A program made the position numbers and the translations under genes. From Patescibacteria group bacterium (GTDB lineage: Bacteria > Patescibacteriota > Patescibacteriia > UBA9934 > GWF2-40-263): a stretch of 64,000 nt of DNA. Under the pieces are notes generated by a model. That model saw only the letters and a program-made list of their open reading frames with translations, was not told where the DNA came from and searched no databases. Below, in pieces: positions 7,430 through 60,577 of this stretch. The number at the start of each line of letters is the position of its first letter. Within the stretch, counting starts at the first letter, position 1. The stretch covers positions 132,368 to 196,367 of the forward strand of contig JBAZTR010000002.1 of NCBI GenBank assembly GCA_041661745.1, read 5' to 3'.

Positions 7430-8422
7430 ATGTCTAAATTTCTAACTGCCATCCAGCCGAGCGGCCTTCTGCACCTCGGTAACTATATCGGGGCCATTGA
7501 ACCGGCCGTGGAATCGCAACGCGGCAACGAGCTGCGAATGTTTGTTGTTGATTACCACGCCATCACTGTGCCGCAAAAGCCGGAGGAACTGCGTAAAAAT
7601 ATTCTCCTTGCCACCGCCACTTATCTGGCCTGCGGTATTGATCCAAAAAAGACCATACTCTTTCAGCAATCGCGCGTGCCCCAACACGCCGAGCTGGCTT
7701 GGATTTTAAACTGCACGGCACGCATGGGCGAGCTGGAACGCATGACTCAATACAAAGACAAGGCCCGAACCCGCGGCGAAACCACCACCGTCGGTCTTTT
7801 CGACTACCCGGTGCTCATGGCCGCTGATATTCTTCTTTACGACACGGCCATTGTTCCGGTTGGCGAAGATCAAAAGCAACATGTGGAGCTGGCTCGCGAT
7901 TTAGCCATTCGTTTTAATCGCGATTTCGGCGAAACTTTTGTTGTTCCGCAGCCGAAAATCCGCGAAGTTGGGGCGCGTATTATGGGCCTTGATGATCCGA
8001 CCAAAAAAATGTCGAAATCGGCTTCCAATCCAAAAAATTACATCTCGCTAATGGACGACACTGAGACTGTCCGAAAAAAAATCATGAGCGCAGCCACCGA
8101 TTCCGAGGGACTTGTTGCTTTTGACGAAAAACGTCCGGGAATAGCCAACCTTATGACGATCTATACAGCTGTAGCCAAAAAAGACAATGAAAACATGGAA
8201 CGGCTCGAGGCTGAATACGACGGTAAAGGCTACGGCGAATTCAAAAAAGATTTGGCCGAAAAAATAAATGAATTCCTCGTGCCACTGCAGGCCAAAATTA
8301 GAACTAATCTGAAAAACGAAAAGGCCTTAATCAAAATTTTGGAAGCCGGCTCAAAACGCGCGGCCAAAGAAGCCGAGAAAAAAATGGAGTTGGTGCGGAA
8401 AAGGATTGGAATAAAATTATAA
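7430..8422 (+). CDS. trpS: Tryptophanyl-tRNA synthetase
   Basis: HIGH-type motif HLGNYIGA and KMSKS motif (KKMSKSASN). 330 aa. Confidence 0.9.
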   Translation: MSKFLTAIQPSGLLHLGNYIGAIEPAVESQRGNELRMFVVDYHAITVPQKPEELRKNILLATATYLACGIDPKKTILFQQSRVPQHAELAWILNCTARMGELERMTQYKDKARTRGETTTVGLFDYPVLMAADILLYDTAIVPVGEDQKQHVELARDLAIRFNRDFGETFVVPQPKIREVGARIMGLDDPTKKMSKSASNPKNYISLMDDTETVRKKIMSAATDSEGLVAFDEKRPGIANLMTIYTAVAKKDNENMERLEAEYDGKGYGEFKKDLAEKINEFLVPLQAKIRTNLKNEKALIKILEAGSKRAAKEAEKKMELVRKRIGIKL

Positions 8423-8436
8423 AAAAGATATACAAA

Positions 8437-8462
8437 AAATCGTCCTTGCGGACGTTTTTTTG
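8437..8462 (+). terminator. Rho-independent terminator after trpS
   Basis: CGTCCTTGCGGACG hairpin followed by TTTTTTT. Confidence 0.6.
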
Positions 8463-8463
8463 A

Positions 8464-8872
8464 CACAGAACCATCTGTAAGCCGAATTTTGTCTGCCCGA
8501 TCTTACGACCGAGGAGGCAATCATTTATCTAGATTAGACATTGCTGCCTAATTCATCAGCGAGCTACCAGTAAAACTTGCTCTTGTACCAGAAGGGGTTT
8601 TCCACGCGTCCATGTTGCCATGGAGCGAAAGGCGTTCGACGCCTTACTTTTCACCTTTCATCCCGCCAGAGGCGGGACTAGTATTGTCTCTGTGGCACTA
8701 ATCCCTAAGCTTTTGAACTTGAACAACAGAGATCTCTCAAGGTCGTCCAGATTCATTATGCTTGGTCGCCGTTAGCGACTTTCCTTTTCATCAGCCGTTG
8801 CCGACTGAAGGGTATTCGGACTTTCCTCAACTCACCTTTCGGCAAATCGCGATTGCCCGATGGTCTGTGCCC
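8464..8872 (-). ncRNA. rnpB: RNase P RNA (bacterial type) candidate
   Basis: About 410-nt ORF-free gap. The minus strand has GAGGAAAGTCCGAAT (P4 5' strand) near the 5' end and ACAGATGGTTCTGTG / CGGCTTA near the 3' end. The P1 strands pair (GCACAGACCATC with GATGGTTCTGTG). There is a GGTGAAAAGTAAGGCG-like element. Confidence 0.55.
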
Positions 8873-8944
8873 GAAGAAGATATCATAAAAAGGCGTTATT
8901 GTCAATGAAGCAAAAAAAGATTAAAATGGAGCTACTTCATTTTT

Positions 8945-10366
8945 ATGAAAAAAAGCGAACTTTTTCTTACCTTCCTTTTACTGCCTTTGGATATTTCAGC
9001 AATTGTTGCCGGCGGTCTAACAGCCTATGCCCTGCGCTTTCACCCGGCTTTAGCCGAAATAAAGCCGGTCATCTTTCAGCTACCGCTTGATCGCTACGCC
9101 GGTATTCTGGCCTTGGCCGTGGTGTTATGGATTGTTGTTTTTGCTTTCGCTGGACTATACAACACCCACCCCCGTCCTTTAAAAAAAGAATTGGTCCGCC
9201 TTTTTATTGCTTCGGCAGCCAGCATGGCGGTAATTTTTTCTGTCTTGTTTTTCTCACGTTCTTTTTTTGAATCGCGTTTTATTGTCATGGCTGGCTGGGC
9301 TTTAGCCCTAGCCTTTACGGGGTTGGAACGCGTGGCCATACGCCTGTTGCAACGAGCTCTATTAGTCTGGGGTATTGGCATACACCGTGTGGTTGTAATA
9401 GGTAAAAACAAAACTGCCGAAGCCTTAATTAAAGAATTTAAACACAAGGGCCGCCTGGGTTTTAGAGTTATAGCTCACCTTGCCAAATACGACGAATCGA
9501 CCCAAAAAGTTTTAGCTGATTTAGTAAAAAAGGATGCTGTTGATGAAATTCTTTTAACCGATCAAAATGTTTCGCGCGAAGATACCCTCGAGCTTTTGGC
9601 TTTCACTGATGCTGAACATATTTCTTTCAAATACACGGCTGATTTGTTTGCCGCGGCCATTGGTCGTACTGACATTGGCACTTACGCCGGCATTCCGGTC
9701 GTGGAAATTCGCAAAACTCCGCTTGATGGTTGGGGGGCAATTTACAAAAGATTTTTTGATATCGCTGTTTCTCTAACTTTAATTGTCATTACCTTACCTA
9801 TTCAAATCATCACGGTTATCGCCCTTTTTATTGAACAGCCCGGACGAGTTCTTTTCTCGCGTTTGCCTGATGGTAAAAAAACCGTTCGCGTCGGACAACA
9901 TGGAAAAAACTTTCACTATTTTAAATTTCGTTCAATGATCAAGGATGCTCACAAATACCGCTTTGATCCTGACTTTATAAAAAAATACGGCAACGAACGT
10001 GAGGGCACGCCGCTCTTTAAACTTAAAGATGATCCGCGCATCACTCCCGTTGGCCGTTTTATTCGCAAATTCAGTATTGACGAATTACCGGAATTTTATT
10101 TGGTCTTTTTTGGCCGTATGTCGCTTATTGGTCCACGACCACACCTGCCGGAAGAGGTGGCCGAATACAAACCACATCATCGTCGCGTTTTAACCATTAA
10201 ACCGGGCATTACTGGCTTAGCCCAAATCAGCGGTCGGGCTGACCTTGATTTTGAGGACGAAGTGCGGTTAGATACTTACTACATCGAACATTGGAGCCCT
10301 TGGCTCGATTTAACGATTTTACTCAGAACACCCTTTGTTGTCCTATTTGGACACGAAGGGGGGTAG
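8945..10366 (+). CDS. Polyprenyl-phosphate sugar phosphotransferase (WbaP / bacterial sugar transferase family)
   Basis: N-terminal TM helices plus a C-terminal bacterial-sugar-transferase domain (SIDELPEF..LIGPRP). Confidence 0.8.
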   Translation: MKKSELFLTFLLLPLDISAIVAGGLTAYALRFHPALAEIKPVIFQLPLDRYAGILALAVVLWIVVFAFAGLYNTHPRPLKKELVRLFIASAASMAVIFSVLFFSRSFFESRFIVMAGWALALAFTGLERVAIRLLQRALLVWGIGIHRVVVIGKNKTAEALIKEFKHKGRLGFRVIAHLAKYDESTQKVLADLVKKDAVDEILLTDQNVSREDTLELLAFTDAEHISFKYTADLFAAAIGRTDIGTYAGIPVVEIRKTPLDGWGAIYKRFFDIAVSLTLIVITLPIQIITVIALFIEQPGRVLFSRLPDGKKTVRVGQHGKNFHYFKFRSMIKDAHKYRFDPDFIKKYGNEREGTPLFKLKDDPRITPVGRFIRKFSIDELPEFYLVFFGRMSLIGPRPHLPEEVAEYKPHHRRVLTIKPGITGLAQISGRADLDFEDEVRLDTYYIEHWSPWLDLTILLRTPFVVLFGHEGG

Positions 10367-26439: not shown

Positions 26440-26694
26440 ACTGCCGTTCGCTACAATTCAATTTTTCAAGAAAAAAGGCTCATTCATCCAGTCTTTGGAG
26501 AATGGGTTTTAAAACTCCAGCGAACAACGATCATTCACAATTGAAGACCTGCAACAAACAAGCAAAAAGAATCAATTGTCAATTATACGATTGTAACGTC
26601 TATCAATGACAAATATTTAACTCCAAACAATAACGGAGCTAGTCATTTCTCAGAGTTCCTCCGAAGCCCGTAAGGGCAAAGGGGAATTTCTTCT

Positions 26695-54112: not shown

Positions 54113-54180
54113 CGTGTCCGTCATAGCTCGCCTCGAGCGACGGCGGAATGCCACCTAGCCACCGCGATTCCAAAAACACT

Positions 54181-55101
54181 ATGCCAACTCAAATCGATAA
54201 ACTCTTAACTGACTTCCTTGAATATCTCGAAGTCGAACGCGGTCGCTCGGCCCGGACGATTAGAAATTACGATTTTTATTTGCGCCGGTTTATTAAATGG
54301 GCACGCCACCCTTCGCCGGCCGGCATTACCGATGATTTGATTCGCAAATTTCGCCTGTGGCTTAATCGTGCTGTGCCCGGACGACTTGATTCCACCATAA
54401 AAAAGAACACACAAAATTATCACCTTATTGCCTTGCGAGCTTTTCTTAAATACTTGGCTCGTCGCGATATAAAATCCATGTCCCCGGAAAAAATCGAGTT
54501 GGCTAAAGCCCCCTCGCGCATTGTTGCTTTTTTAGAAGCCGATGAATTGGATCGTGTTTTACAAATTCCCCTAGCCGCCGGCGAAGATTTAATCGGCTTG
54601 CGCGACAAAGCCATTTTGGAAATGCTTTTTTCGACCGGCCTACGCGTGTCCGAATTGGCTAATTTAAAAATCGATCAGGTAAATTTGAAACGCGACGAAT
54701 TCACTGTCCGCGGCAAAGGCGACAAACCGCGCGTTGTTTTTTTATCCGACTCGGCCAAAGAGTGGTTAAAAAAATATTTAAACAAACGCCACGATACTTC
54801 GCCTTACATGTTCATTTGCCACGACCGTGCCAAACGCGGCCGTGAGGATTCCGGTCCAATTACTCCGCGTTCAATCGAACGGATGGTTGAGTATTGTGCC
54901 AAAGCCGCCGGGGTCACCAAACGCATTACCCCGCACACCTTGCGCCACACTTTTGCCACTGACCTTTTAATGAACGGTGCCGATATTCGTTCAGTTCAAT
55001 CGCTCCTCGGCCACGCTTCCATCACCACCACCCAGGTGTATACTCATATTACGAATAAACAGCTAAAAGAAGTGCATAAAAAATTTCACGATAAGAAATA
55101 A
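54181..55101 (+). CDS. Tyrosine site-specific recombinase XerC/XerD
   Basis: HTLRHTFATDLLMNGADIRSVQSLLGHASITTTQVYTH catalytic box (R, H-x-x-R, Y). Confidence 0.85.
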   Translation: MPTQIDKLLTDFLEYLEVERGRSARTIRNYDFYLRRFIKWARHPSPAGITDDLIRKFRLWLNRAVPGRLDSTIKKNTQNYHLIALRAFLKYLARRDIKSMSPEKIELAKAPSRIVAFLEADELDRVLQIPLAAGEDLIGLRDKAILEMLFSTGLRVSELANLKIDQVNLKRDEFTVRGKGDKPRVVFLSDSAKEWLKKYLNKRHDTSPYMFICHDRAKRGREDSGPITPRSIERMVEYCAKAAGVTKRITPHTLRHTFATDLLMNGADIRSVQSLLGHASITTTQVYTHITNKQLKEVHKKFHDKK

Positions 55102-55104
55102 AAT

Positions 55105-57465
55105 ATGCGTACCATAGAAAAATCAGAAGCACCTCCGGTCAAAGACACTCGGGAACCGAAAAATTCAAGCGAAATTATTAATGAAATTTTTCAGTACCTG
55201 GAAGAAAGAGAATTGATTGAGAGAAAACCGGATGGTGTACTTATCGTAGATAGCCAACTTTTATCCCGGTACGATGTCAGAGACGCTTTATTTCGAAAAC
55301 TCAACGGCCGGTTAGGTAAAACAAGGGCCGAGCAAATAGGCAACTTATTTCTAGAAGAAAAAGTTGTTATAAATTATTCAGAAGATGAAGTCGTCCCAAT
55401 CGGCAGCCAGAAACCAGAGCCACTTTTTTATTCACCTAAATCAAAAGAGGACGCCTTTGATTTAGAAAAAATCAAAGGCGCTAATTTTCATTTTGGCCTC
55501 TGGGAAGATTACAAGGGCTTTGTCGACAAAAACGGAAACACTGTCGAACAGCCGGGGGCAACAGATGGTTTATCTTTAATTGAGGCTTCGCTAGCCTGTC
55601 TTATTTTTCATCCTAAATTTGGTAATGGCCACCGCAACGAAAAGGGACAACTGGTTGTTCGGAGACCTAATGGACAAGAAACGGTTTTTTCGTCCAATTG
55701 GCTGAAGGAATGGCCCGGCATGCATACCAGAGTCAATGAAAAAAACAGTCGACCGTTGTTTGAATATTTTTTTACCAACAGTCAAACCATGGCCGCCAAC
55801 CTGCTAGAACAAGGTTTGCTTAATCGAGCTGATTTTGCCCGAACCAAAGAAGTAAGGACTTCGGAAACACGAGTTAGTAGTAATGGTATGGTTTCGATTG
55901 ATTCGGTCAAACACTACTTGGGTCGGCAGTATGCCGGAACCAGAGTTGAACCGCTTGGTGAAATATTAGCAGTGATTAGAGCCGACGAATCGGGAAACGA
56001 AACCTTAGTCGCCACAAGTCGACAGCTTAAAAAAGGTGATGTTGGCCTGGTCCAAAGAAAAACGGCCACCGGAACCTTTCTCGAAGCTCCGGTTGATCTA
56101 TGCCAACCAATACCTTTCGACCCAAAAAAACCGCACACCCTAGACGATTCCGCGGATATAGAAAAAAAAATTGAACAAGCCAAAGTCCTTAATGGCTTGC
56201 AAATGAAATTGGATTTTGATAATCACTTAAATCGCTCCGGATCCGAAGCCAGACTCAGCCTTCTTCCGTCTTTTTTGCAAAAGAAAATCCAAAAAAATAT
56301 TGCCAATCTGCCAACAATTTTTTCGCCTGGTTTAAAACTAAGTGAAGAAGACGGTCAGGACGGTTTAGAAATTTTTGCCATGACTATCGACCAACCGATT
56401 TTATTTTTACAAACTTTTTATTCACTTAAGGATTTGTCTGAAAGTGAACGTCTCAAGGCCCAGGAAACAATAAAAGAACTTTGCCACTTAAGACTGGCTG
56501 TACAGCATCTTTCTAGGAACCTCGGCAAAAAAGATTCAGAAAAAATTGGTGAAATGGTTAATGAAAGTTTAGTTAAAAGAGAAGAAGGCGGATTGGAAAA
56601 ACTCCGAACAGCTGTGGTTTCTGAACTGGCCACGGTTTTGGGAGCTGAATCATTACGGGTTGAACTACAAAATGCCGCGGAAACCGGCGAGGCTTATTTA
56701 AAATCAGTTTTTGAAGATCTATTGCGAGTCATGAGTCCGGAAACACCTAATAATGTCAAAACCAGTCTTAGAAAGTTATATAAAGAAATTAAATTTGAAC
56801 AATACAAACTCAACGAGTTATCGCAACAAAGAGATGAAAACTTTTTGAGGAAAAACTTGCAACTGGGTAGTCGTGTCGCCGACTTAGGTGCCGGCACCGG
56901 ACGCCTTTCCCAGCCATTGTCCGAAGCGGGAATTAAGGTAACTGCCGTTGACAATGTTCAACGCCACGTAGATTTAATGCGCCGAAAATTTCCAAAAGTT
57001 GAAGTTGTAAATGCTGATTGGACCAGAACCGGATTGCCAAATGAAAGTCAGGAAACCGTTTTCTCTTTGGGCCGTTCGATTCTTCACGAATTTACTTTGG
57101 CTAGACAAAATGCTTTGTTTCGCGAGGCCAACCGCATTCTTCAAGATGGTGGAAAATTTATTATCGATATTCCCGATCGCACCAAAGGCAACTACGCCCA
57201 TTTGGTTGAAAGCTACCGAGCCGCCATGGCCGAAAGAAACATTCCGGTTCGAGAGGGTTTAATTTACGACAGCCCCGATGGTCAAAACTTTTTTACAAGA
57301 TACGCTTATTCCCTGGAAGACATTAGGCACTTGGCCGAAGACAACGGTTTCCAAATTGAGACAACTGAAACCGCCCAGGTTGAAACAGGAGAAGGTGACG
57401 AAAACATTTATATTGTTATGAAGAAGGTTGGGCAACCAAAGGAGCAACTTCCTCTGGCGGCATAA
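55105..57465 (+). CDS. Large hypothetical protein with C-terminal class I SAM-dependent methyltransferase domain
   Basis: 786 aa. C-terminal VADLGAGTGRLSQPL motif I and IIDIPD motif. The N-terminal 550 aa are uncharacterised. Confidence 0.6.
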   Translation: MRTIEKSEAPPVKDTREPKNSSEIINEIFQYLEERELIERKPDGVLIVDSQLLSRYDVRDALFRKLNGRLGKTRAEQIGNLFLEEKVVINYSEDEVVPIGSQKPEPLFYSPKSKEDAFDLEKIKGANFHFGLWEDYKGFVDKNGNTVEQPGATDGLSLIEASLACLIFHPKFGNGHRNEKGQLVVRRPNGQETVFSSNWLKEWPGMHTRVNEKNSRPLFEYFFTNSQTMAANLLEQGLLNRADFARTKEVRTSETRVSSNGMVSIDSVKHYLGRQYAGTRVEPLGEILAVIRADESGNETLVATSRQLKKGDVGLVQRKTATGTFLEAPVDLCQPIPFDPKKPHTLDDSADIEKKIEQAKVLNGLQMKLDFDNHLNRSGSEARLSLLPSFLQKKIQKNIANLPTIFSPGLKLSEEDGQDGLEIFAMTIDQPILFLQTFYSLKDLSESERLKAQETIKELCHLRLAVQHLSRNLGKKDSEKIGEMVNESLVKREEGGLEKLRTAVVSELATVLGAESLRVELQNAAETGEAYLKSVFEDLLRVMSPETPNNVKTSLRKLYKEIKFEQYKLNELSQQRDENFLRKNLQLGSRVADLGAGTGRLSQPLSEAGIKVTAVDNVQRHVDLMRRKFPKVEVVNADWTRTGLPNESQETVFSLGRSILHEFTLARQNALFREANRILQDGGKFIIDIPDRTKGNYAHLVESYRAAMAERNIPVREGLIYDSPDGQNFFTRYAYSLEDIRHLAEDNGFQIETTETAQVETGEGDENIYIVMKKVGQPKEQLPLAA

Positions 57466-58228
57466 CTATTCCCTTTGAAGATAAAATAAACTTTATTGCC
57501 GAACGCAAAGTTGCGGCCAAAGAAGAGCTTTCAATAATCGTTCCGATAAGCTCTTCTTTTTTGTAACTGATAAAAGCCACCTTGTCACCAAAAACATCAA
57601 TCTCACCATGAAAATCATAAAGGTCGTGATCGACCGTGGCCACGGAACGCATTTGTTCTTTACTACTTTTAACGTAACTTTCAATATTCTTTTCACCAGA
57701 AGCCACAACATAAGCGTAAATACCCTTTTCAGCCCTGGCCGAACCGTAAGTTTTGGAAAGCCAACGGAAAATCTCCGGAGCCGGGTCATCGGGCCCAACC
57801 AGAGCAAAAATTGTCTTTTTGTCTTCCAGTGTTTCCCGATAGATTTCTTTCAGACTATCAATTCCTTCGAACATTCTAACTGTCGGACGCTTGGTAACCA
57901 GGTTGTATTGAGACTTAAGGGTTGGTAACGCTGCCGATAACTGGTTTAAAAGGTCATGACTGGCGGCCACCTTGGCCTGGGCAAGCCTACGCAAAGTCTC
58001 GGGATCAGCCGCTTTAAACACGGTTTTGGCCCCGGACTCCTCAAAAATTAGCCCCTTTTTCTTTAAAGAAGCCATTACATTATATAGGTTGCCACGGCCT
58101 AAACCCGAAGGAACCAGTAAATCCTGGGCCGGTTTTGGCCCTAATTCCAATAAAAGCTCATAAACCAGGGCCTCGGAATCATTTATTCCCAGTTGGGAAA
58201 GGATTGGGTAATGGACTTCGTGAATCAT
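57416..58228 (-). CDS. TrmB-like HTH transcriptional regulator
   Basis: Start at MIHEVHYPILSQLGINDSEALVYELLLELGP (winged helix of the TrmB family). The upstream extension to 58372 runs into a repeat and is unlikely to be coding. Confidence 0.55.
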   Translation of the reverse strand: MIHEVHYPILSQLGINDSEALVYELLLELGPKPAQDLLVPSGLGRGNLYNVMASLKKKGLIFEESGAKTVFKAADPETLRRLAQAKVAASHDLLNQLSAALPTLKSQYNLVTKRPTVRMFEGIDSLKEIYRETLEDKKTIFALVGPDDPAPEIFRWLSKTYGSARAEKGIYAYVVASGEKNIESYVKSSKEQMRSVATVDHDLYDFHGEIDVFGDKVAFISYKKEELIGTIIESSSLAATLRSAIKFILSSKGIVMPPEEVAPLVAQPSS

Positions 58229-58230
58229 AG

Positions 58231-58325
58231 AAAAGGGAGGGAAAGGGTTGGAAAGAGAGTGGAAGAGAGGGAAAGTTTTTCTTACTTTCCTTCCCTTTAA
58301 TCCCCTTTCCTTCTCTTTCATTCTT
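58231..58325. repeat. Inverted arrays of degenerate GGAAAG hexamers (purine arm / pyrimidine arm)
   Basis: GGGAGGGAAAGGGTTGGAAAGAGAGTGGAAGAGAGGGAAAG .. TTTCCTTCCCTTTAATCCCCTTTCCTTCTCTTTC. Confidence 0.6.
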
Positions 58326-58430
58326 TTACAAATACAGTATAACATCAAAATGCCATATTGTAAATGACACAAAGTGGATAACTATCTTGGCTTAAATTGG
58401 CCTAAATATGTAATATCTGCCACTAAAGTC

Positions 58431-58459
58431 TTGACAAGTTTCCTCTTTTATGATACTAT
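58431..58459 (+). promoter_or_regulatory. sigma70-like promoter (TTGACA, 17-nt spacer, TACTAT) in a gene-free region
   Basis: Consensus -35 with good spacing. No ORF follows. Confidence 0.5.
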
Positions 58460-58465
58460 AGTGTC

Positions 58466-58668
58466 ATCAAGATGAGGTACAGGGAAGCGAAGACCAGTAC
58501 TTCACCAGATCTTTAAAAAATAACGAGCGAGAGAGCCCTAGTCCAGGGTTAAATGGACATCTACTGAACAAGTAGTCTCCCCTATCCTTATATAGGGGGG
58601 CGAAAGAACAGTGGAAAAGACAGGTTTGTGTATCTTTCTCAAATAAGAACATAAACCTGTCTTTTTCT
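58466..58668 (+). ncRNA. Candidate small RNA of about 200 nt (unknown family), bounded by a promoter and an intrinsic terminator
   Basis: Promoter at 58431-58459. Internal hairpins (CCCCTATCCTTATATAGGGGG). Terminator AGACAGGTTT..AAACCTGTCTTTTT at 58618-58668. No ORF longer than 14 codons. Confidence 0.4.
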
Positions 58669-58974
58669 TTAAGACTCTGTCCTGGCCAGACTTGCCAGGA
58701 ATTAACTTGGATGAAAAGGAGATAAACACGCTATCGGTTGAGTCCAACTCAATGGATTCCCGAGGAGATACGGCGAGAGAGATTATCACCCTTTCAACTA
58801 AGCCAAACTTCTTAACGAGTGCGCAGTGGCCTAATTCCCTACGGGTTGAGTTGGACCACCTGCAGTCTTTAAGAAGACTATGAGGTTCTGCAAGAGGTGT
58901 TGGAACCATCTTCTGCCGGATGAACTTTCACAATTGAATATTCATCAAAAAAACTGACCGATACTTCGGGGGCA

Positions 58975-59017
58975 ATTCGTAATTCGTATATTCGTACGAA
59001 TTCGTAATTTCGTCCCC
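58975..59017 (+). repeat. Array of five TTCGTA hexamers with an embedded palindrome ATTCGTACGAAT
   Basis: AATTCGTAATTCGTATATTCGTACGAATTCGTAATTTCGT. Confidence 0.6.
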
Positions 59018-59215
59018 TCTCTGGAACAAGCCGATTTCGGATACTCGACCTTTAACCAGCCATGCTTGGATTAAAGATCATCGAGCCCGAGACTCAGGAC
59101 GTTCTGGAAGATTCGGTCTTCTTAACGAGGAGGGTTCTTCTTCCTCGGTTCGAATAAGTTCTTAACCCCTCTCCCCAACCCTCCCCCAAGGTGGGAGGGA
59201 GATCTAACTTGAGAA

Positions 59216-59396
59216 CTTTGAGAAAAATATGATTTACCAAATTACCTACATCGCTTCGGCGATCGGAACACTTGGGTTCATGCTCGGATTGAGCTAACCC
59301 AAAAAGCACGAGAGAAAAATCTCACGCGTGCTTCATGATTTATAACCTCACCCCACCCTCTCCTTAGTAAGGAGAGGGAGTTACAGATCACGAAGC
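59216..59396 (+). repeat. 180-bp leader repeat, copy A: mini-ORF + hairpins
   Basis: About 90% identical to 60578-60760. Contains the 22-aa ORF at 59229-59297, an imperfect hairpin AGCACGAGAG..CTCACGCGTGCT, and a perfect hairpin CCCTCTCCTTAGTAAGGAGAGGG. Confidence 0.85.
59229..59297 (+). CDS. 22-aa hydrophobic mini-ORF (MIYQITYIASAIGTLGFMLGLS), leader peptide or type-I-toxin-like
   Basis: Conserved in both copies of the leader repeat (paralog MIYYFVYVASAIGTLGVLLGLS). The differences are largely conservative hydrophobic substitutions. Confidence 0.4.
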   Translation: MIYQITYIASAIGTLGFMLGLS

Positions 59397-59466
59397 ATTC
59401 GAGGAGATCCACCTTCGCCGAGCTTCGGCGGACAAGGAGTCCACGATTGCGAATCCTGTCCATGTT

Positions 59467-59498
59467 GGACGGGTCCGGCAGGCATGCCGTCCTTTTTT
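59467..59498 (+). terminator. Intrinsic terminator / attenuator immediately upstream of the ribosome-binding site and ATG of the first GC-rich gene
   Basis: GGACGGGTCCGGCAGGCATGCCGTCC hairpin, then TTTTTT, then GGAGGAAAACATG. Confidence 0.55.
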
Positions 59499-59508
59499 GG
59501 AGGAAAAC

Positions 59509-60372
59509 ATGCGCTTCGTCATCAGCAGCAATCCCGTCGTCCTCGCCGCCGCCCTGCAGGACAAGCCGTCCGCAACGGTCGAGGCCGAGTACGGCAACGC
59601 CGTGGTCGAGGGCTCTGTCCTCACCATGGCGCACCACGGCCCCCGCGCCGGCCAGCCCGCGCCCTGTGCCTACGAGAACGGCTGCGCCGACGGGGTCGAG
59701 GTGGTGGGCCTGTCCCACTTCGATCTCGACACCCTCGGCGGGTGCGCGGCCATCCTCGGCCGCAAGGTCGAGGCCCCGACCTTCTGGCAGCTCGCCGAGT
59801 TCATCGACCTCAACGGGGCTCACAAGCTCAACGAGGGGATCGAGAAGACCGGCGCGACGCCCGACGACGTGGCCAAGCTCTTCGCCTTCTGGGCGTGGTC
59901 GCGCAACTTCCGCGTCTTCCCGAACCGCGACGGCAGCGTCAGCGACGTCACCGACAAGGTCATCGAGGGCTGCAACGTCCTCGACAAGATCATGAACGGC
60001 GATGCCGACCTGATGAAGGCCGGAACGGTCTACAAGGACGCGGAAGGGAAACTCAACGCCGACTCGTTCGTGGAGGCGAAGGACGGCGTGGTGGTGCGGG
60101 TCTCGTCCCAGTTCACCAACCACCTGTACAACACCCCCGACGGGAAGGCCCACGCCGCGGTCGTGGCCTACACCACGACGACCGGCGCAGTCACGGTCAG
60201 CTTCGCGGACTCCCCCAAGGGCAAGAACGCCCGCCAGATCGTGCAGGAGCTCTGGGGTGAGCTCGCCGGTGGCCACGCCGGAATCGCCGGCAGCCCCCGC
60301 GACCGTCGCATGTCCCTCATCGACCTCACCGCGGCGGTCGAGGCCCTCCGCGCCGCGCTCGCCGGCAAGTAG
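59509..60372 (+). CDS. Hypothetical protein (about 68% GC, foreign composition)
   Basis: ORF 59497..60372 with ATG at 59509 behind a GGAGG ribosome-binding site. Strong GC3 bias. No motif recognised. Confidence 0.55.
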   Translation: MRFVISSNPVVLAAALQDKPSATVEAEYGNAVVEGSVLTMAHHGPRAGQPAPCAYENGCADGVEVVGLSHFDLDTLGGCAAILGRKVEAPTFWQLAEFIDLNGAHKLNEGIEKTGATPDDVAKLFAFWAWSRNFRVFPNRDGSVSDVTDKVIEGCNVLDKIMNGDADLMKAGTVYKDAEGKLNADSFVEAKDGVVVRVSSQFTNHLYNTPDGKAHAAVVAYTTTTGAVTVSFADSPKGKNARQIVQELWGELAGGHAGIAGSPRDRRMSLIDLTAAVEALRAALAGK

Positions 60373-60577
60373 TCACATAGGTTTCTTTCCCAATTTCTTC
60401 TCCTTAGGGCGAAAAAAGTAAATTGGCCATGTGTGCTTTCGAACTCGAGCACGCGTGGAACCGTAGAGTTCAAAAGGAAAGTCGTCTCCCTTTAAGTAGA
60501 CGGCAAAAACAATGCACTCGATTGGCGGATTCACTCCCCGCCTCTTCGACTAAACTCTTGAATTTTCTTTCGAGGGC

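What the first reader, a model, noticed from the sequence alone, without database searches (positions are those of the whole stretch)
58340..58700. Promoter-to-terminator unit with no ORF: candidate small RNA of about 200 nt
A consensus TTGACA-17-TACTAT promoter (58431-58459) is followed by about 200 nt containing stable hairpins (CCCCTATCCTTATATAGGGGG and others) and a clean intrinsic terminator (AGACAGGTTT..AAACCTGTCTTTTT). The longest ORF is 14 codons. It lies in a 1.1-kb gene desert between a TrmB-like regulator and the leader cassette. I could not match it by eye to tmRNA, SRP RNA or 6S RNA.
Basis: seen in the sequence. Interest (0 to 1): 0.55.

Follow-up and report, generated by a model that had tools for sequence, protein, structure and literature searches.

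The report
Conserved leader RNA heading foreign-gene array
The promoter-to-terminator unit is real and belongs to a previously undescribed structured RNA conserved in a small group of Patescibacteria, but it is probably the first domain of a roughly 750-nt RNA leader in front of horizontally acquired defence genes, not a free-standing small RNA.

Summary
A TTGACA-17-TGnTACTAT promoter (58431-58459) is followed by about 200 nt with no conserved ORF and a strong hairpin plus U-run terminator (58612-58669). No Rfam 15 family, tRNA or tmRNA matches.

I found 14 homologous copies in Patescibacteria metagenome contigs, each with the same promoter grammar. The conserved core is:
- a 5' hairpin, usually with the loop GAAGCGAAG;
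- an A-rich, boxA-like linker;
- an invariant GAGAGAG;
- a small H-type pseudoknot with strong covariation;
- a terminator whose loop always carries a CUCUC-type complement to GAGAGAG.

The rest of the "gene desert" (58671-59140) is also conserved, structured, same-strand RNA, in at least six lineages. It contains a 12-nt motif identical to one in this genome's 16S leader. No strong promoter follows. Downstream lie mostly co-oriented, high-GC, defence-type genes (Csx3, MoxR-vWA, SAVED).

My best reading (about 0.45) is a leader or attenuator domain that gates read-through into this array and yields a roughly 200-nt RNA by default. The main rival (about 0.3) is a stand-alone trans-acting sRNA. 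Transcription could not be tested.

The parts
58336..58428 (.). Conserved upstream control region. It holds the divergent promoter for the TrmB-like gene (TTTACA-17-TATACT, 58364-58336 on the - strand) and conserved blocks (AATGRCA..GTGGATAA, GGCTTAAATTRGCC, CTGCCAC) directly upstream of the -35. These are candidate operators.
   Evidence: The blocks are conserved in window, L001, L005, L006, L010, L031 and L033.
58431..58459 (+). Sigma-70-type promoter: TTGACA, 17 nt, then TG-extended TACTAT. Predicted start near 58466.
   Evidence: The same TTGACA-17-TGnTAnnnT is present in all 14 homologues. The RNase P RNA gene in the window has the same grammar.
58473..58504 (+). P1 hairpin with apical loop GAAGCGAAGA (58484-58493). 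The loop is invariant as GAAGCGAAG in 10 homologues. It may be a GCGA (GNRA) tetraloop on A.A / G.A pairs.
   Evidence: The apical stem covaries: CAGAG/CUCUG, CUGG/CCAG, CGAG/CUCG, CCGG/CCGG, UUCGG/CUGAA.
58508..58519 (+). A-rich single-stranded linker GATCTTTAAAAA, which is boxA-like.
   Evidence: It has 2 mismatches to the E. coli boxA GCTCTTTAACAA and 1 to the Legionella CRISPR-leader boxA GTTCTTTAAAA (PMC7862264). The core NNC(C/A/T)TT(A/C)A is kept in all homologues, but with 2-6 mismatches.
58528..58535 (+). Invariant CGAGAGAG element.
   Evidence: Invariant columns. It is complementary to the terminator loop in 13 of 13 homologues. It pairs with that loop in 7 of 10 folds of transcripts truncated before the 3' arm.
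58536..58558 (+). H-type pseudoknot. S1 is CCC (58536-58538) with GGG (58546-58548). S2 is GUCC (58541-58544) with GGAC (58555-58558). L3 is A-rich.
   Evidence: All pairs are Watson-Crick in 10 of 10 sequences, with S2 variants GUCC/GGAC, GGCC/GGCC, CAUCC/GGAUG, GCCU/AGGC, CACC/GGUG, UACC/GGUA, ACCC/GGGU and CGAUC/GAUCG, and GCACC/GGUGC in L034. The pseudoknot grammar is met by 9 of 9 sequences, against 0.1-0.7% of shuffles.
58561..58600 (+). Two variable hairpins: CTACTGAACAAGTAG and CCCCTATCCTTATATAGGGGGG.
   Evidence: Present in window, L006 and L014. L001 and L033 have one different hairpin. L005, L010, L013 and L016 have none.
58612..58669 (+). Intrinsic terminator: a stem of about 23 bp with an A-run before it and a U-run after it. 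The loop carries CUUUCUC (58634-58640), complementary to GAGAGAG.
   Evidence: 11 of 17 pairs change on both sides and 96.7% of cells pair. The sequence is different in L013, L032 and L036, but a hairpin plus T-run is kept. The T-run is weak in L035.
58671..59140 (+). Region B: a conserved structured RNA domain of about 470 nt, closed by AAGAC (58671-58675) pairing with GUCUU (59116-59120). It carries variable hairpin inserts.
   Evidence: RNAalifold gives 103 pairs, 18 of them compensatory among 4 sequences, with many conserved G.U pairs that fit only the + strand.
58927..58938 (+). TTCACAATTGAA motif inside region B. It is identical to a motif in this genome's 16S rRNA leader (26534-26545), in the same orientation, and is boxA-like.
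   Evidence: It is conserved at the same place in L001, L005, L006, L034 (exact) and L035 (1 mismatch).
59141..59228 (+). First copy of the junction repeat: TTCGAATAAGTTCTTAA, an inserted CCCTCCC..GGGAGGG hairpin, then TTGAGAACTTTGAGAAAAA. Homology between genomes ends here and the variable genes begin.
   Evidence: Further copies lie at window 60530-60588 and, degenerate, at 60770-60826. L001 has 8 and L005 has 2, all co-oriented with the RNA.

Best explanation
The unit is the promoter-proximal domain ('domain A') of a long structured leader RNA that starts a hotspot of horizontally acquired genes, mostly defence-type, in a clade of Patescibacteria.

Proposed mechanism:
1. A near-consensus promoter, probably under the divergently encoded TrmB-like regulator, fires at about 58466.
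2. The nascent RNA folds into the P1 hairpin, a boxA-like single strand, the GAGAGAG element and a small H-type pseudoknot.
3. RNA polymerase then meets a strong intrinsic terminator. By default it stops there and releases a stable RNA of about 200 nt.
4. A fraction of polymerases read through into the 470-nt structured region B and on into the downstream foreign genes, which lack strong promoters. That fraction may be set by the pseudoknot and by GAGAGAG pairing with the terminator loop, or by Nus-type factors loaded on the boxA-like elements.

Shown here: the promoter, the terminator, the conserved fold with covariation, the same-strand structured region B, the lack of strong downstream promoters, and the variable high-GC genes downstream.

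Inferred: actual transcription, read-through, what controls it, and any role of Nus factors or TrmB.
For: 1. Fourteen homologues share the promoter and core architecture.
2. Covariation supports P1, the pseudoknot and the terminator.
3. Region B follows the terminator directly. It is conserved in window, L001, L005, L006, L034 and L035, and in part in L010, L014, L032 and L033. It has 18 compensatory pairs and conserved G.U pairs that fit only the + strand. No promoter of at least 10/12 lies between the terminator and the downstream genes in any of the six loci scanned. Region B can therefore only be made by read-through, or from a promoter that does not match the consensus.
4. In L013, which lacks both TrmB and most of region B, the RNA is still followed within 170 nt by a co-oriented gene of higher GC content with its own ribosome-binding site and no promoter.
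5. The first downstream genes are co-oriented with the RNA in window, L001, L005, L006, L013, L032 and L034.
6. Region B carries a 12-nt motif identical to one in the 16S leader. The linker in domain A is 1-2 mismatches from published boxA sequences (PMC7862264). BoxA elements are known upstream of long untranslated RNAs and CRISPR arrays. A 200-nt RNA that always ends at its own terminator would have no use for one.
7. GAGAGAG is complementary to the terminator loop in 13 of 13 homologues. This holds in two structural contexts: next to the pseudoknot, and inside a hairpin loop in L032 and L036. That links the conserved 5' core physically to the terminator.
Against: - No transcript data were available, so neither the short RNA nor read-through has been observed.
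- No convincing antiterminator that competes for a terminator arm was found. GAGAGAG pairs only with the loop and does not extend into the stem (my inspection).
- Up to 60-90 nt of variable hairpins separate the pseudoknot from the terminator, which is unusual for a kinetic riboswitch.
- The terminators are very strong, at -24 to -35 kcal/mol.
- The downstream genes have no common function that would suggest a ligand.
- In L035 the nearest downstream genes (HicAB pairs) are antisense to the RNA.
- The boxA resemblance of the domain-A linker weakens to 2-6 mismatches in other homologues. In the 16S leader, the TTCACAATTGAA motif could be a structural hairpin arm rather than a boxA.
- The promoter scans match a consensus only and would miss weak or atypical promoters.
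Confidence: 0.45

Rival explanations
1. It is a stand-alone, trans-acting small RNA of about 200 nt, either a base-pairing regulator or a protein-binding RNA. Its conserved unpaired motifs (the GAAGCGAAG loop, GAGAGAG and the CCUUAAAA linker) would act as seeds or protein sites. Its position next to the variable region would be incidental, or would reflect targets inside that region.
For: - It has its own strong promoter and a strong terminator, with the same grammar as the RNase P RNA gene in this genome.
- Sequence-invariant unpaired motifs are typical of seed regions.
- It occurs in L013 without TrmB or region B.
- TCGCTTC, the complement of the P1-loop sequence GAAGCGA, is about 3.5 times more frequent downstream (7 in 29 kb) than upstream (7 in 102 kb). 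Copies lie inside both copies of the 22-codon hydrophobic ORF and at the first junction of L001 and L005.
Against: - It does not explain why region B, which has no promoter, is conserved as same-strand structure directly after the terminator.
- It does not explain the boxA-like elements.
- The 7-nt complementarity is weak statistically, and its positions are not homologous between genomes.
- GAGAGAG has an internal partner in the terminator loop, so it is less likely to be a free seed.
Confidence: 0.3
2. Domains A and B are one large structural non-coding RNA of about 700 nt, in the manner of OLE, GOLLD or ROOL. The 'terminator' would be an internal long helix or an RNase III processing stalk, and the GCGA-type P1 loop would dock onto region B.
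For: - Both domains are conserved and structured on the same strand.
- A GNRA-like invariant loop and variable hairpin inserts at fixed points are typical of large structured RNAs.
- The stem of about 23 bp, with an A-run pairing to the U-run, would be a good RNase III substrate.
Against: - A T-run after the stem is kept in 12 of 13 homologues even where the stem sequence is entirely different. That argues for termination.
- L013 has domain A but not region B.
- No tetraloop receptor or A-to-B covariation was identified.
- No Rfam large-RNA family matches.
Confidence: 0.12
3. It is the RNA component, or the target site, of the machinery that inserts the foreign genes. It would be either a guide or bridge-type RNA for a recombinase, or an RNA gene whose 3' end serves as the attachment site, as tmRNA and tRNA genes do for genomic islands.
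For: - Homology between genomes ends exactly at the junction repeat that closes region B.
- In window, L001 and L005 the same repeat recurs, co-oriented, between the downstream gene blocks. This is expected of serial site-specific insertion.
- Contigs from many assemblies break at this locus.
- A Xer-type tyrosine recombinase lies 3 kb upstream in window and L001.
Against: - No recombinase is linked to the RNA in L005, L006, L008, L032, L033 or L034.
- The recombinase in the window scores as XerC/D and falls below the integron-integrase cut-off.
- Complementarity between the RNA's loops and the junction repeat is at most 5-8 nt and is not conserved (my inspection).
- L032, L006 and L013 have no junction repeats.
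- The insertion point lies 560 nt beyond the terminator of the 200-nt unit.
Confidence: 0.08

Closest known systems
Transcription-attenuating leader RNAs and riboswitches with small H-type pseudoknot sensors (for example preQ1-I, SAM-II, fluoride)
   Same: - A strong promoter, a compact conserved fold that includes an H-type pseudoknot with an A-rich third loop, then an intrinsic terminator upstream of co-oriented genes.
- The pseudoknot has the same strand order as preQ1-I: S1 5' arm, L1, S2 5' arm, S1 3' arm, A-rich L3, S2 3' arm.
   Different: - No Rfam riboswitch model matches.
- The downstream genes are heterogeneous and foreign rather than one pathway.
- 0-90 nt of variable hairpins separate the sensor from the terminator.
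- No mutually exclusive antiterminator was found.
- A further 470-nt structured domain lies between the terminator and the first gene.
rrn-type (boxB-boxA-boxC) Nus-factor antitermination leaders, and the boxA elements reported upstream of CRISPR arrays (Stringer et al., as cited in PMC7862264)
   Same: - A hairpin followed by a U/A-rich single strand resembling boxA lies just after a strong promoter, ahead of a long untranslated transcript.
- Region B shares a 12-nt motif with this genome's own 16S leader.
   Different: - The boxA match is imperfect and degrades among homologues.
- An intrinsic terminator sits between the two boxA-like elements.
- From my own knowledge, rrn-type antitermination acts mainly on Rho-dependent terminators.
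- No NusB or NusE binding was tested.
Integron platform (Pc promoter and attI, followed by an attC-separated cassette array)
   Same: - One strong outward-facing promoter sits at the head of a variable array of mostly promoterless, co-oriented, horizontally acquired genes.
- In three genomes the blocks are separated by a conserved imperfect-palindrome repeat with a variable central part.
- The arrays contain toxin-antitoxin pairs (HicAB in L035).
   Different: - No integron integrase is present: the Xer-like protein is below the cut-off and is not linked in most loci.
- The repeat lacks the attC core, ending ...TTTGAGAAGAA rather than GTTRRRY.
- Its G.T pairs favour the top strand.
- A 750-nt structured RNA with an internal terminator has no counterpart in integrons.
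- Some 'cassettes' are multigene blocks of more than 7 kb.
Large bacterial ncRNAs of unknown function (OLE, GOLLD, ROOL, raiA, HEARO)
   Same: - A long, highly structured, narrowly distributed non-coding RNA with variable inserts.
- It is associated with mobile or variable DNA.
   Different: - There is no sequence or structure match to any of them.
- It has a two-domain layout with an internal terminator.
- It is found in Patescibacteria.

Membership tests
6S RNA | A long closing helix formed by the 5' and 3' ends around a large central bubble; match to Rfam RF00013 | tested here: not met
   The MFE and centroid folds show independent hairpins and no 5'-3' closing stem. No 6S hit appears even at E <= 10, nor in the homologues.
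tmRNA | A tRNA-like acceptor and T-arm domain plus a tag reading frame | tested here: not met
   ARAGORN finds 6 tRNAs and no tmRNA in the window. Rfam finds no tmRNA.
SRP RNA | The conserved domain IV (helix 8) motif; match to the Rfam SRP models | tested here: not met
   No SRP hit at the gathering threshold or at E <= 10.
Known riboswitch classes (Rfam 15) | Match to a curated aptamer model | tested here: not met
   cmscan of 58200-59550 at E <= 10 gives only chance miRNA-like hairpin hits. The same holds for 7 homologous loci.
Known riboswitch classes (Rfam 15) | A consistent functional class of downstream genes pointing to a ligand | tested here: not met
   The downstream genes differ between loci: DHH-like, Csx3, MoxR-vWA, AAA, SAVED, HicAB and proteins of unknown function.
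Intrinsic-terminator attenuator (generic) | A promoter, a structured leader, a hairpin plus U-run, and co-oriented downstream genes without a promoter of their own | tested here: met
   This rests on consensus scanning only.
Intrinsic-terminator attenuator (generic) | An alternative (antiterminator) structure mutually exclusive with the terminator | tested here: inconclusive
   Only the pairing of GAGAGAG with the terminator loop was found. It does not invade the stem.
rrn-type boxA antitermination leader | A boxA sequence (consensus GCTCTTTAACAA) in the nascent RNA downstream of the promoter | tested here: inconclusive
   The linker GATCTTTAAAAA has 2 mismatches in the window and 3-6 in the other homologues. 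TTCACAATTGAA in region B is identical to a motif in the 16S leader. Over GATCATTCACAA, that 16S-leader motif matches the consensus at 9 of 12 positions.
rrn-type boxA antitermination leader | Binding of NusB and NusE, and read-through that depends on Nus factors | not testable with these tools
   This needs biochemistry or genetics.
Integron | An IntI-type tyrosine recombinase with the integron-specific insertion, adjacent to the array | tested here: not met
   The protein at 54148-55101 scores 145 bits against the 265-bit cut-off for TIGR02249. It scores best as XerC/D. No such gene is found near the array in L005, L006, L008, L032 or L034.
Integron | attC sites: imperfect palindromes with R''/R' cores RYYYAAC and GTTRRRY | tested here: not met
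   The junction repeat is an imperfect palindrome, TCTTC..AAGTTCTTAAA / TTTGAGGACTT..GAAGA. It lacks the GTTRRRY core, and L032, L006 and L013 have no repeat at all.
Type I toxin-antitoxin antisense RNA | An sRNA encoded antisense to, or overlapping, a small hydrophobic toxin ORF | tested here: not met
   The 22-codon hydrophobic ORFs (59230-59298 and 60595-60663) lie 560 nt or more downstream on the same strand. The only link is a 7-nt complementarity.

The most novel reading that the evidence does not exclude
The 200-nt unit is the regulatory head of a previously undescribed expression platform for captured genes in Patescibacteria. The platform would consist of:
- a TrmB-controlled strong promoter;
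- an attenuator domain in which a pseudoknot and a kissing contact with the terminator loop set read-through;
- rRNA-leader-like antitermination signals;
- a 470-nt structured RNA domain.

Together these would drive promoterless, horizontally acquired, high-GC defence genes. In some lineages those genes are organised as integron-like cassettes separated by a structured repeat of about 110 nt that is unrelated to attC.
Probability: 0.3. Interest if true: 0.85.

Novelty: new variant of a known kind. Interest (0 to 1): 0.62.

Why it matters
Patescibacteria (CPR) have tiny genomes with very little non-coding DNA, and almost nothing is known about their regulatory RNAs. In this lineage about 750 nt of conserved, structured, non-coding RNA sits exactly where foreign, high-GC, defence-type genes accumulate.

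If the leader model is right, it shows how an ultra-small, host-dependent bacterium expresses and controls captured genes that carry no native promoters. It would also add a new attenuator architecture: a pseudoknot plus a contact with the terminator loop.

If the junction repeats prove to be recombination sites, this would be a gene-cassette system independent of integron integrases and attC.

Even on the most modest reading, this is a new RNA family, with a well-supported pseudoknot, that is ready for submission to Rfam.

Tried and rejected
1. Known RNA families. Rfam at the gathering threshold on the whole window, at E <= 10 on 58200-59550, and at E <= 0.1 on 7 homologous loci gave nothing relevant. 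ARAGORN found no tmRNA.
2. Coding potential. The 14-codon ORF changes frame between the window and L001. The antisense ORFs are 35% identical over 60 aa with 25% gaps, although the DNA is about 80% identical.
3. Phage or plasmid origin. blastn in 'distant' mode against phages and plasmids gave no match. The viral-contig pattern scan gave 0 hits.
4. Wider distribution. The genome-collection pattern scan returned only the contig already known (L030 = L008) among 13 hits; the rest were chance. In the metagenome scan, 5 of 7 hits were true and L015 and L017 were chance matches in coding repeats.
5. Antiterminator search. I tested pairing of the linker with the terminator 5' arm, and a 5'-end AAGAU with linker AUCUU helix. 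Neither is conserved across homologues (inspection).
6. Guide-RNA idea. Complementarity between the P1 loop, GAGAGAG or the terminator loop and the junction repeat is short and not conserved (and inspection).
7. Ribozyme resemblances. The hammerhead-like GAUGAG and the pistol-like GUUAAAU are not conserved in the right context, and no Rfam ribozyme matches.
8. Shared cassettes between genomes. The downstream proteins are not near-identical between loci; the best case is MoxR at 54%. Recent cassette exchange could therefore not be shown.
9. Literature. Searches for Patescibacteria with integron, riboswitch or non-coding RNA found nothing that describes this locus.
10. Alignment. The MAFFT alignment misplaced the pseudoknot arms, so I checked the pseudoknot with an explicit per-sequence table and a grammar test instead.
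Full report
**Observation**

The window is a Patescibacteria (CPR) MAG fragment; an identical TrmB-family protein carries that source name. GC content is about 0.44 up to roughly 59400 and 0.55-0.65 after it.

- Promoter: TTGACA (58431-58436), 17 nt, TACTAT (58454-58459), preceded by an extended-10 TG.
- About 200 nt follow with no conserved ORF.
- Terminator: 17-nt arms at 58615-58631 and 58649-58665 are 94% complementary. The stem extends to about 23 pairs and is followed by a T-run.
- Fold: the + strand folds far better than shuffles (z = -5.5, 0 of 200 shuffles as good). The - strand gives z = -2.8.

The RNase P RNA gene in the same window has the same promoter grammar (TTGACA-17-TGnTATCTT, 9 nt upstream of the RNA) and a terminator just after it. 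Consensus promoters of this kind therefore mark genuine RNA genes in this organism. Only 24 sites of at least 10/12 occur in the 64 kb, and none lies downstream of 58431 on either strand.

**Not a known RNA**

Rfam 15 gives nothing at the gathering threshold. At E <= 10 it gives only chance miRNA-like hairpin hits, which fall on a purine/pyrimidine hairpin upstream and on the terminator. ARAGORN finds no tmRNA. Seven homologous loci also match no family. Nothing similar is present in the phage or plasmid collections, and the pattern scan found nothing in the viral contigs.

**Conservation**

I collected homologues in two ways: from the genomic neighbourhoods of TrmB homologues, and from a DNA pattern built on invariant blocks. 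This gave 14 distinct copies:
- window (= L004, an independent assembly of the same locus)
- L001, L005, L006, L008/L010, L013, L014, L016
- L031 (cut by the contig end), L032, L033, L034, L035, L036

. All 14 carry TTGACA-17-TGnTAnnnT. A covariance model built from eight copies finds exactly one strong copy per locus: 172 bits in the window, down to 24 and 17 bits in the most divergent copies.

The genome-collection scan found no further species. The family therefore looks rare, or narrowly distributed, at the sensitivity of an exact-pattern search.

**Anatomy**

In order from the 5' end:
- **P1** is an irregular hairpin starting about 7 nt after the predicted start. Its apical stem covaries (CAGAG/CUCUG, CUGG/CCAG, CGAG/CUCG, CCGG/CCGG, UUCGG/CUGAA). 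Its loop GAAGCGAAG is invariant in ten copies.
- **The linker** is a single-stranded A-rich stretch with the core NNC(C/A/U)UU(A/C)A.
- **(C/G)GAGAGAG** is invariant.
- **The H-type pseudoknot** pairs fully in 10 of 10 sequences, and in L034 by inspection. S2 varies: GUCC/GGAC, GGCC/GGCC, CAUCC/GGAUG, GCCU/AGGC, CACC/GGUG, UACC/GGUA, ACCC/GGGU, CGAUC/GAUCG, GCACC/GGUGC. S1 is usually CCC/GGG, but CCACG/CGUGG in L013 and GCCG/CGGC in L031. A fixed grammar is met by 9 of 9 sequences, against 0.1-0.7% of shuffles.
- **Variable hairpins**, from zero to two.
- **The terminator** keeps its shape even where its sequence is unrelated (L013, L032, L036). Its energy is -24 to -35 kcal/mol, and 12 of 13 copies have a clear T-run.

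On the CM alignment, 87.6% of cells pair, against 74.7% in shuffles and 26-50% when the partners are slid. 20 of 32 pairs change on both sides.

The terminator loop always contains a CUCUC-type stretch complementary to GAGAGAG: 5-7 nt in 13 of 13 copies. Transcripts truncated before the 3' arm fold into this helix in 7 of 10 cases. In L032 and L036 the GAGAGAG sits in a hairpin loop, which would make the contact a kissing complex. Both partners are invariant, so this contact has no covariation support.

**Not coding**

The 14-codon ORF shifts frame between the window and its closest relative. The antisense ORFs are not conserved as protein.

**The unit is not isolated**

The 470 nt after the terminator (region B, 58671-59140) are conserved in at least six lineages, with variable hairpin inserts at fixed points.
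- RNAalifold on four sequences gives 103 pairs, 18 with compensatory changes.
- Many invariant G.U pairs would be C.A mismatches on the other strand, so this is + strand RNA.
- The domain is closed by a helix between AAGAC, right after the T-run, and GUCUU, just before the first junction repeat.
- No promoter of at least 10/12 lies between the terminator and the downstream genes in the six loci examined.

Region B also contains TTCACAATTGAA (58927-58938). This is identical to a motif about 90 nt into this genome's 16S leader (26534-26545), in the same orientation, and these are the only exact or one-mismatch occurrences in the window. The motif is kept at the same place in L001, L005, L006, L034 and L035. 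The 16S-leader version, GATCATTCACAA, matches the E. coli boxA consensus at 9 of 12 positions.

The domain-A linker GATCTTTAAAA is one mismatch from the boxA that was taken from a Legionella CRISPR leader and shown to raise array transcription. It is two mismatches from the E. coli consensus (PMC7862264). In other homologues the match is weaker, at 2-6 mismatches. That paper also summarises two points: boxA elements precede long non-coding RNAs such as 16S, and Stringer et al. found them upstream of CRISPR arrays. I treat the boxA reading as a lead, not a result.

**What lies downstream**

Homology between genomes stops at a junction repeat (window 59141-59228). Beyond it the genes differ between loci and are often much richer in GC than the host.
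- Window: a DHH-like protein, Csx3 plus a Csx3-associated AAA protein, then MoxR and vWA.
- L005 and L034: bpMoxR, with vWA as well in L034.
- L006: an AAA ATPase.
- L032: SAVED and MoxR-vWA.
- L035: two HicAB pairs and Csx3.
- L013: a 158-aa protein of unknown function.

The first genes are co-oriented with the RNA in seven loci. In L035 the nearest genes are antisense.

In window, L001 and L005 the blocks are separated by a co-oriented module of about 110 nt. It consists of a GGCGG-N9-CCGCC hairpin followed by an imperfect palindrome, TCTTC..AAGTTCTTAAA / TTTGAGGACTT..GAAGA, with a variable centre. L032, L006 and L013 have no such repeat.

The recombinase 3 kb upstream is XerC/D-like, scores below the integron-integrase cut-off, and is not linked in most loci. 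Many assemblies break at this locus, as expected for a strain-variable region.

**Interpretation**

The simplest account of all this is that the 200-nt unit is the promoter-proximal domain of a long leader. By default polymerase terminates and releases a short RNA. A fraction that may be regulated reads on into region B and the foreign genes.

For this model:
- a promoterless, same-strand, structured region B;
- the position and orientation of the downstream genes;
- the L013 arrangement;
- the boxA-like signals;
- the physical link between the conserved core and the terminator loop.

Against this model:
- there are no transcript data;
- no classical antiterminator was found;
- variable inserts lie between the sensor and the terminator;
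- the terminators are very strong;
- the downstream genes are heterogeneous;
- L035 is an exception on orientation.

I put this model at about 0.45. A stand-alone trans-acting sRNA gets about 0.3. It is supported by the complete gene-like signals, the invariant unpaired motifs, and a weak enrichment of the P1-loop complement downstream. A single large structural RNA gets about 0.12, and a role in gene capture about 0.08.

**Novelty**

The RNA is a new family. Its kind, a structured leader or sRNA ending in an intrinsic terminator, is familiar. Its architecture and its setting at the head of a foreign-gene hotspot in a CPR bacterium are not.

Noticed in passing
window 58671-59140: Region B is a conserved structured RNA domain of about 470 nt, directly after the terminator and on the same strand. 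It has 18 compensatory pairs among only 4 sequences and matches no Rfam family.
   Followed up: partly
window 26534-26545 and 58927-58938: The 12-nt motif TTCACAATTGAA is identical in the 16S rRNA leader and in region B, in the same orientation. It is conserved in region B of five other lineages. It may be this clade's boxA.
   Followed up: partly
window 59141-59228, 60500-60588, 60770-60826; L001 at 8980, 8642, 7730, 5900, 3536, 2955, 1670, 1021; L005 at 2397, 1700: A co-oriented two-hairpin 'junction' repeat of about 110 nt, ending ...TTTGAGAAGAA, separates the downstream gene blocks. The layout is like an integron cassette array, but without the attC core or an integron integrase.
   Followed up: partly
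window 59223-59401 and 60588-60766: A 179-nt direct repeat (88% identical). Each copy holds a 22-codon hydrophobic ORF (MIYQITYIASAIGTLGFMLGLS and MIYYFVYVASAIGTLGVLLGLS), followed by an imperfect inverted repeat around a CCCTCTCC..GGAGAGGG hairpin. It could be a small membrane peptide or a type I toxin-like module. A copy is also present in L005.
   Followed up: no
window ~59400-64000 (continues in L004): GC content jumps abruptly from about 0.44 to 0.60-0.68. The high-GC genes are DHH-like, Csx3, a Csx3-associated AAA protein, MoxR, vWA and a 768-aa protein. The same junction is present in an independent assembly (L004), so it is not an assembly chimera.
   Followed up: partly
window 55105-57465: A 786-aa protein with a C-terminal SAM methyltransferase domain and an uncharacterised N-terminal region of about 570 aa. 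It is always convergent with the TrmB-like gene. It evolves fast: 59% identity to L001, against 87% for TrmB and 92% for the Xer-like protein. It has a weak PADLOC 'mad2' hit.
   Followed up: no
window 58231-58330: A long purine-rich/pyrimidine-rich hairpin (GGGAGGGAAAGGG...CCCTTTCCTTCTC) lies between the TrmB start codon and its promoter. It is the source of the spurious plant-miRNA Rfam hits. Similar GGGAGAGGG/CCCTCTCCC hairpins are scattered through region B and the junctions as variable inserts.
   Followed up: no
window 58965-59015; L001 ~9290-9345 and ~7790-7850; L006 ~1700-1760: Clusters of ATTCGTA/TACGAAT repeats, some of them palindromic (TACGAATTCGTA), occupy variable positions in region B and between gene blocks. 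They look like iterons or protein-binding sites.
   Followed up: no
window 59476-59498: A terminator-like hairpin plus T-run (CGGCAGGCATGCCG TCCTTTTTT) lies immediately upstream of the ribosome-binding site of the first high-GC gene. It may have come along from the donor genome, and it would be a further obstacle to read-through.
   Followed up: no
L008, L031, L033, L014, L016 (contig ends): Contigs from several independent assemblies end within or just after this RNA locus. This suggests strain-level variability or repeats at this site.
   Followed up: no
L035 4126-5207: Two tandem HicB-HicA toxin-antitoxin pairs lie in the variable region downstream of the RNA, antisense to it.
   Followed up: no
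window 8441-8905: The RNase P RNA gene (408 nt) has a TTGACA-17-TGnTATCTT promoter (8905-8877) and a short bidirectional terminator (8441-8454). It is a useful internal reference for RNA-gene signals in this genome.
   Followed up: yes
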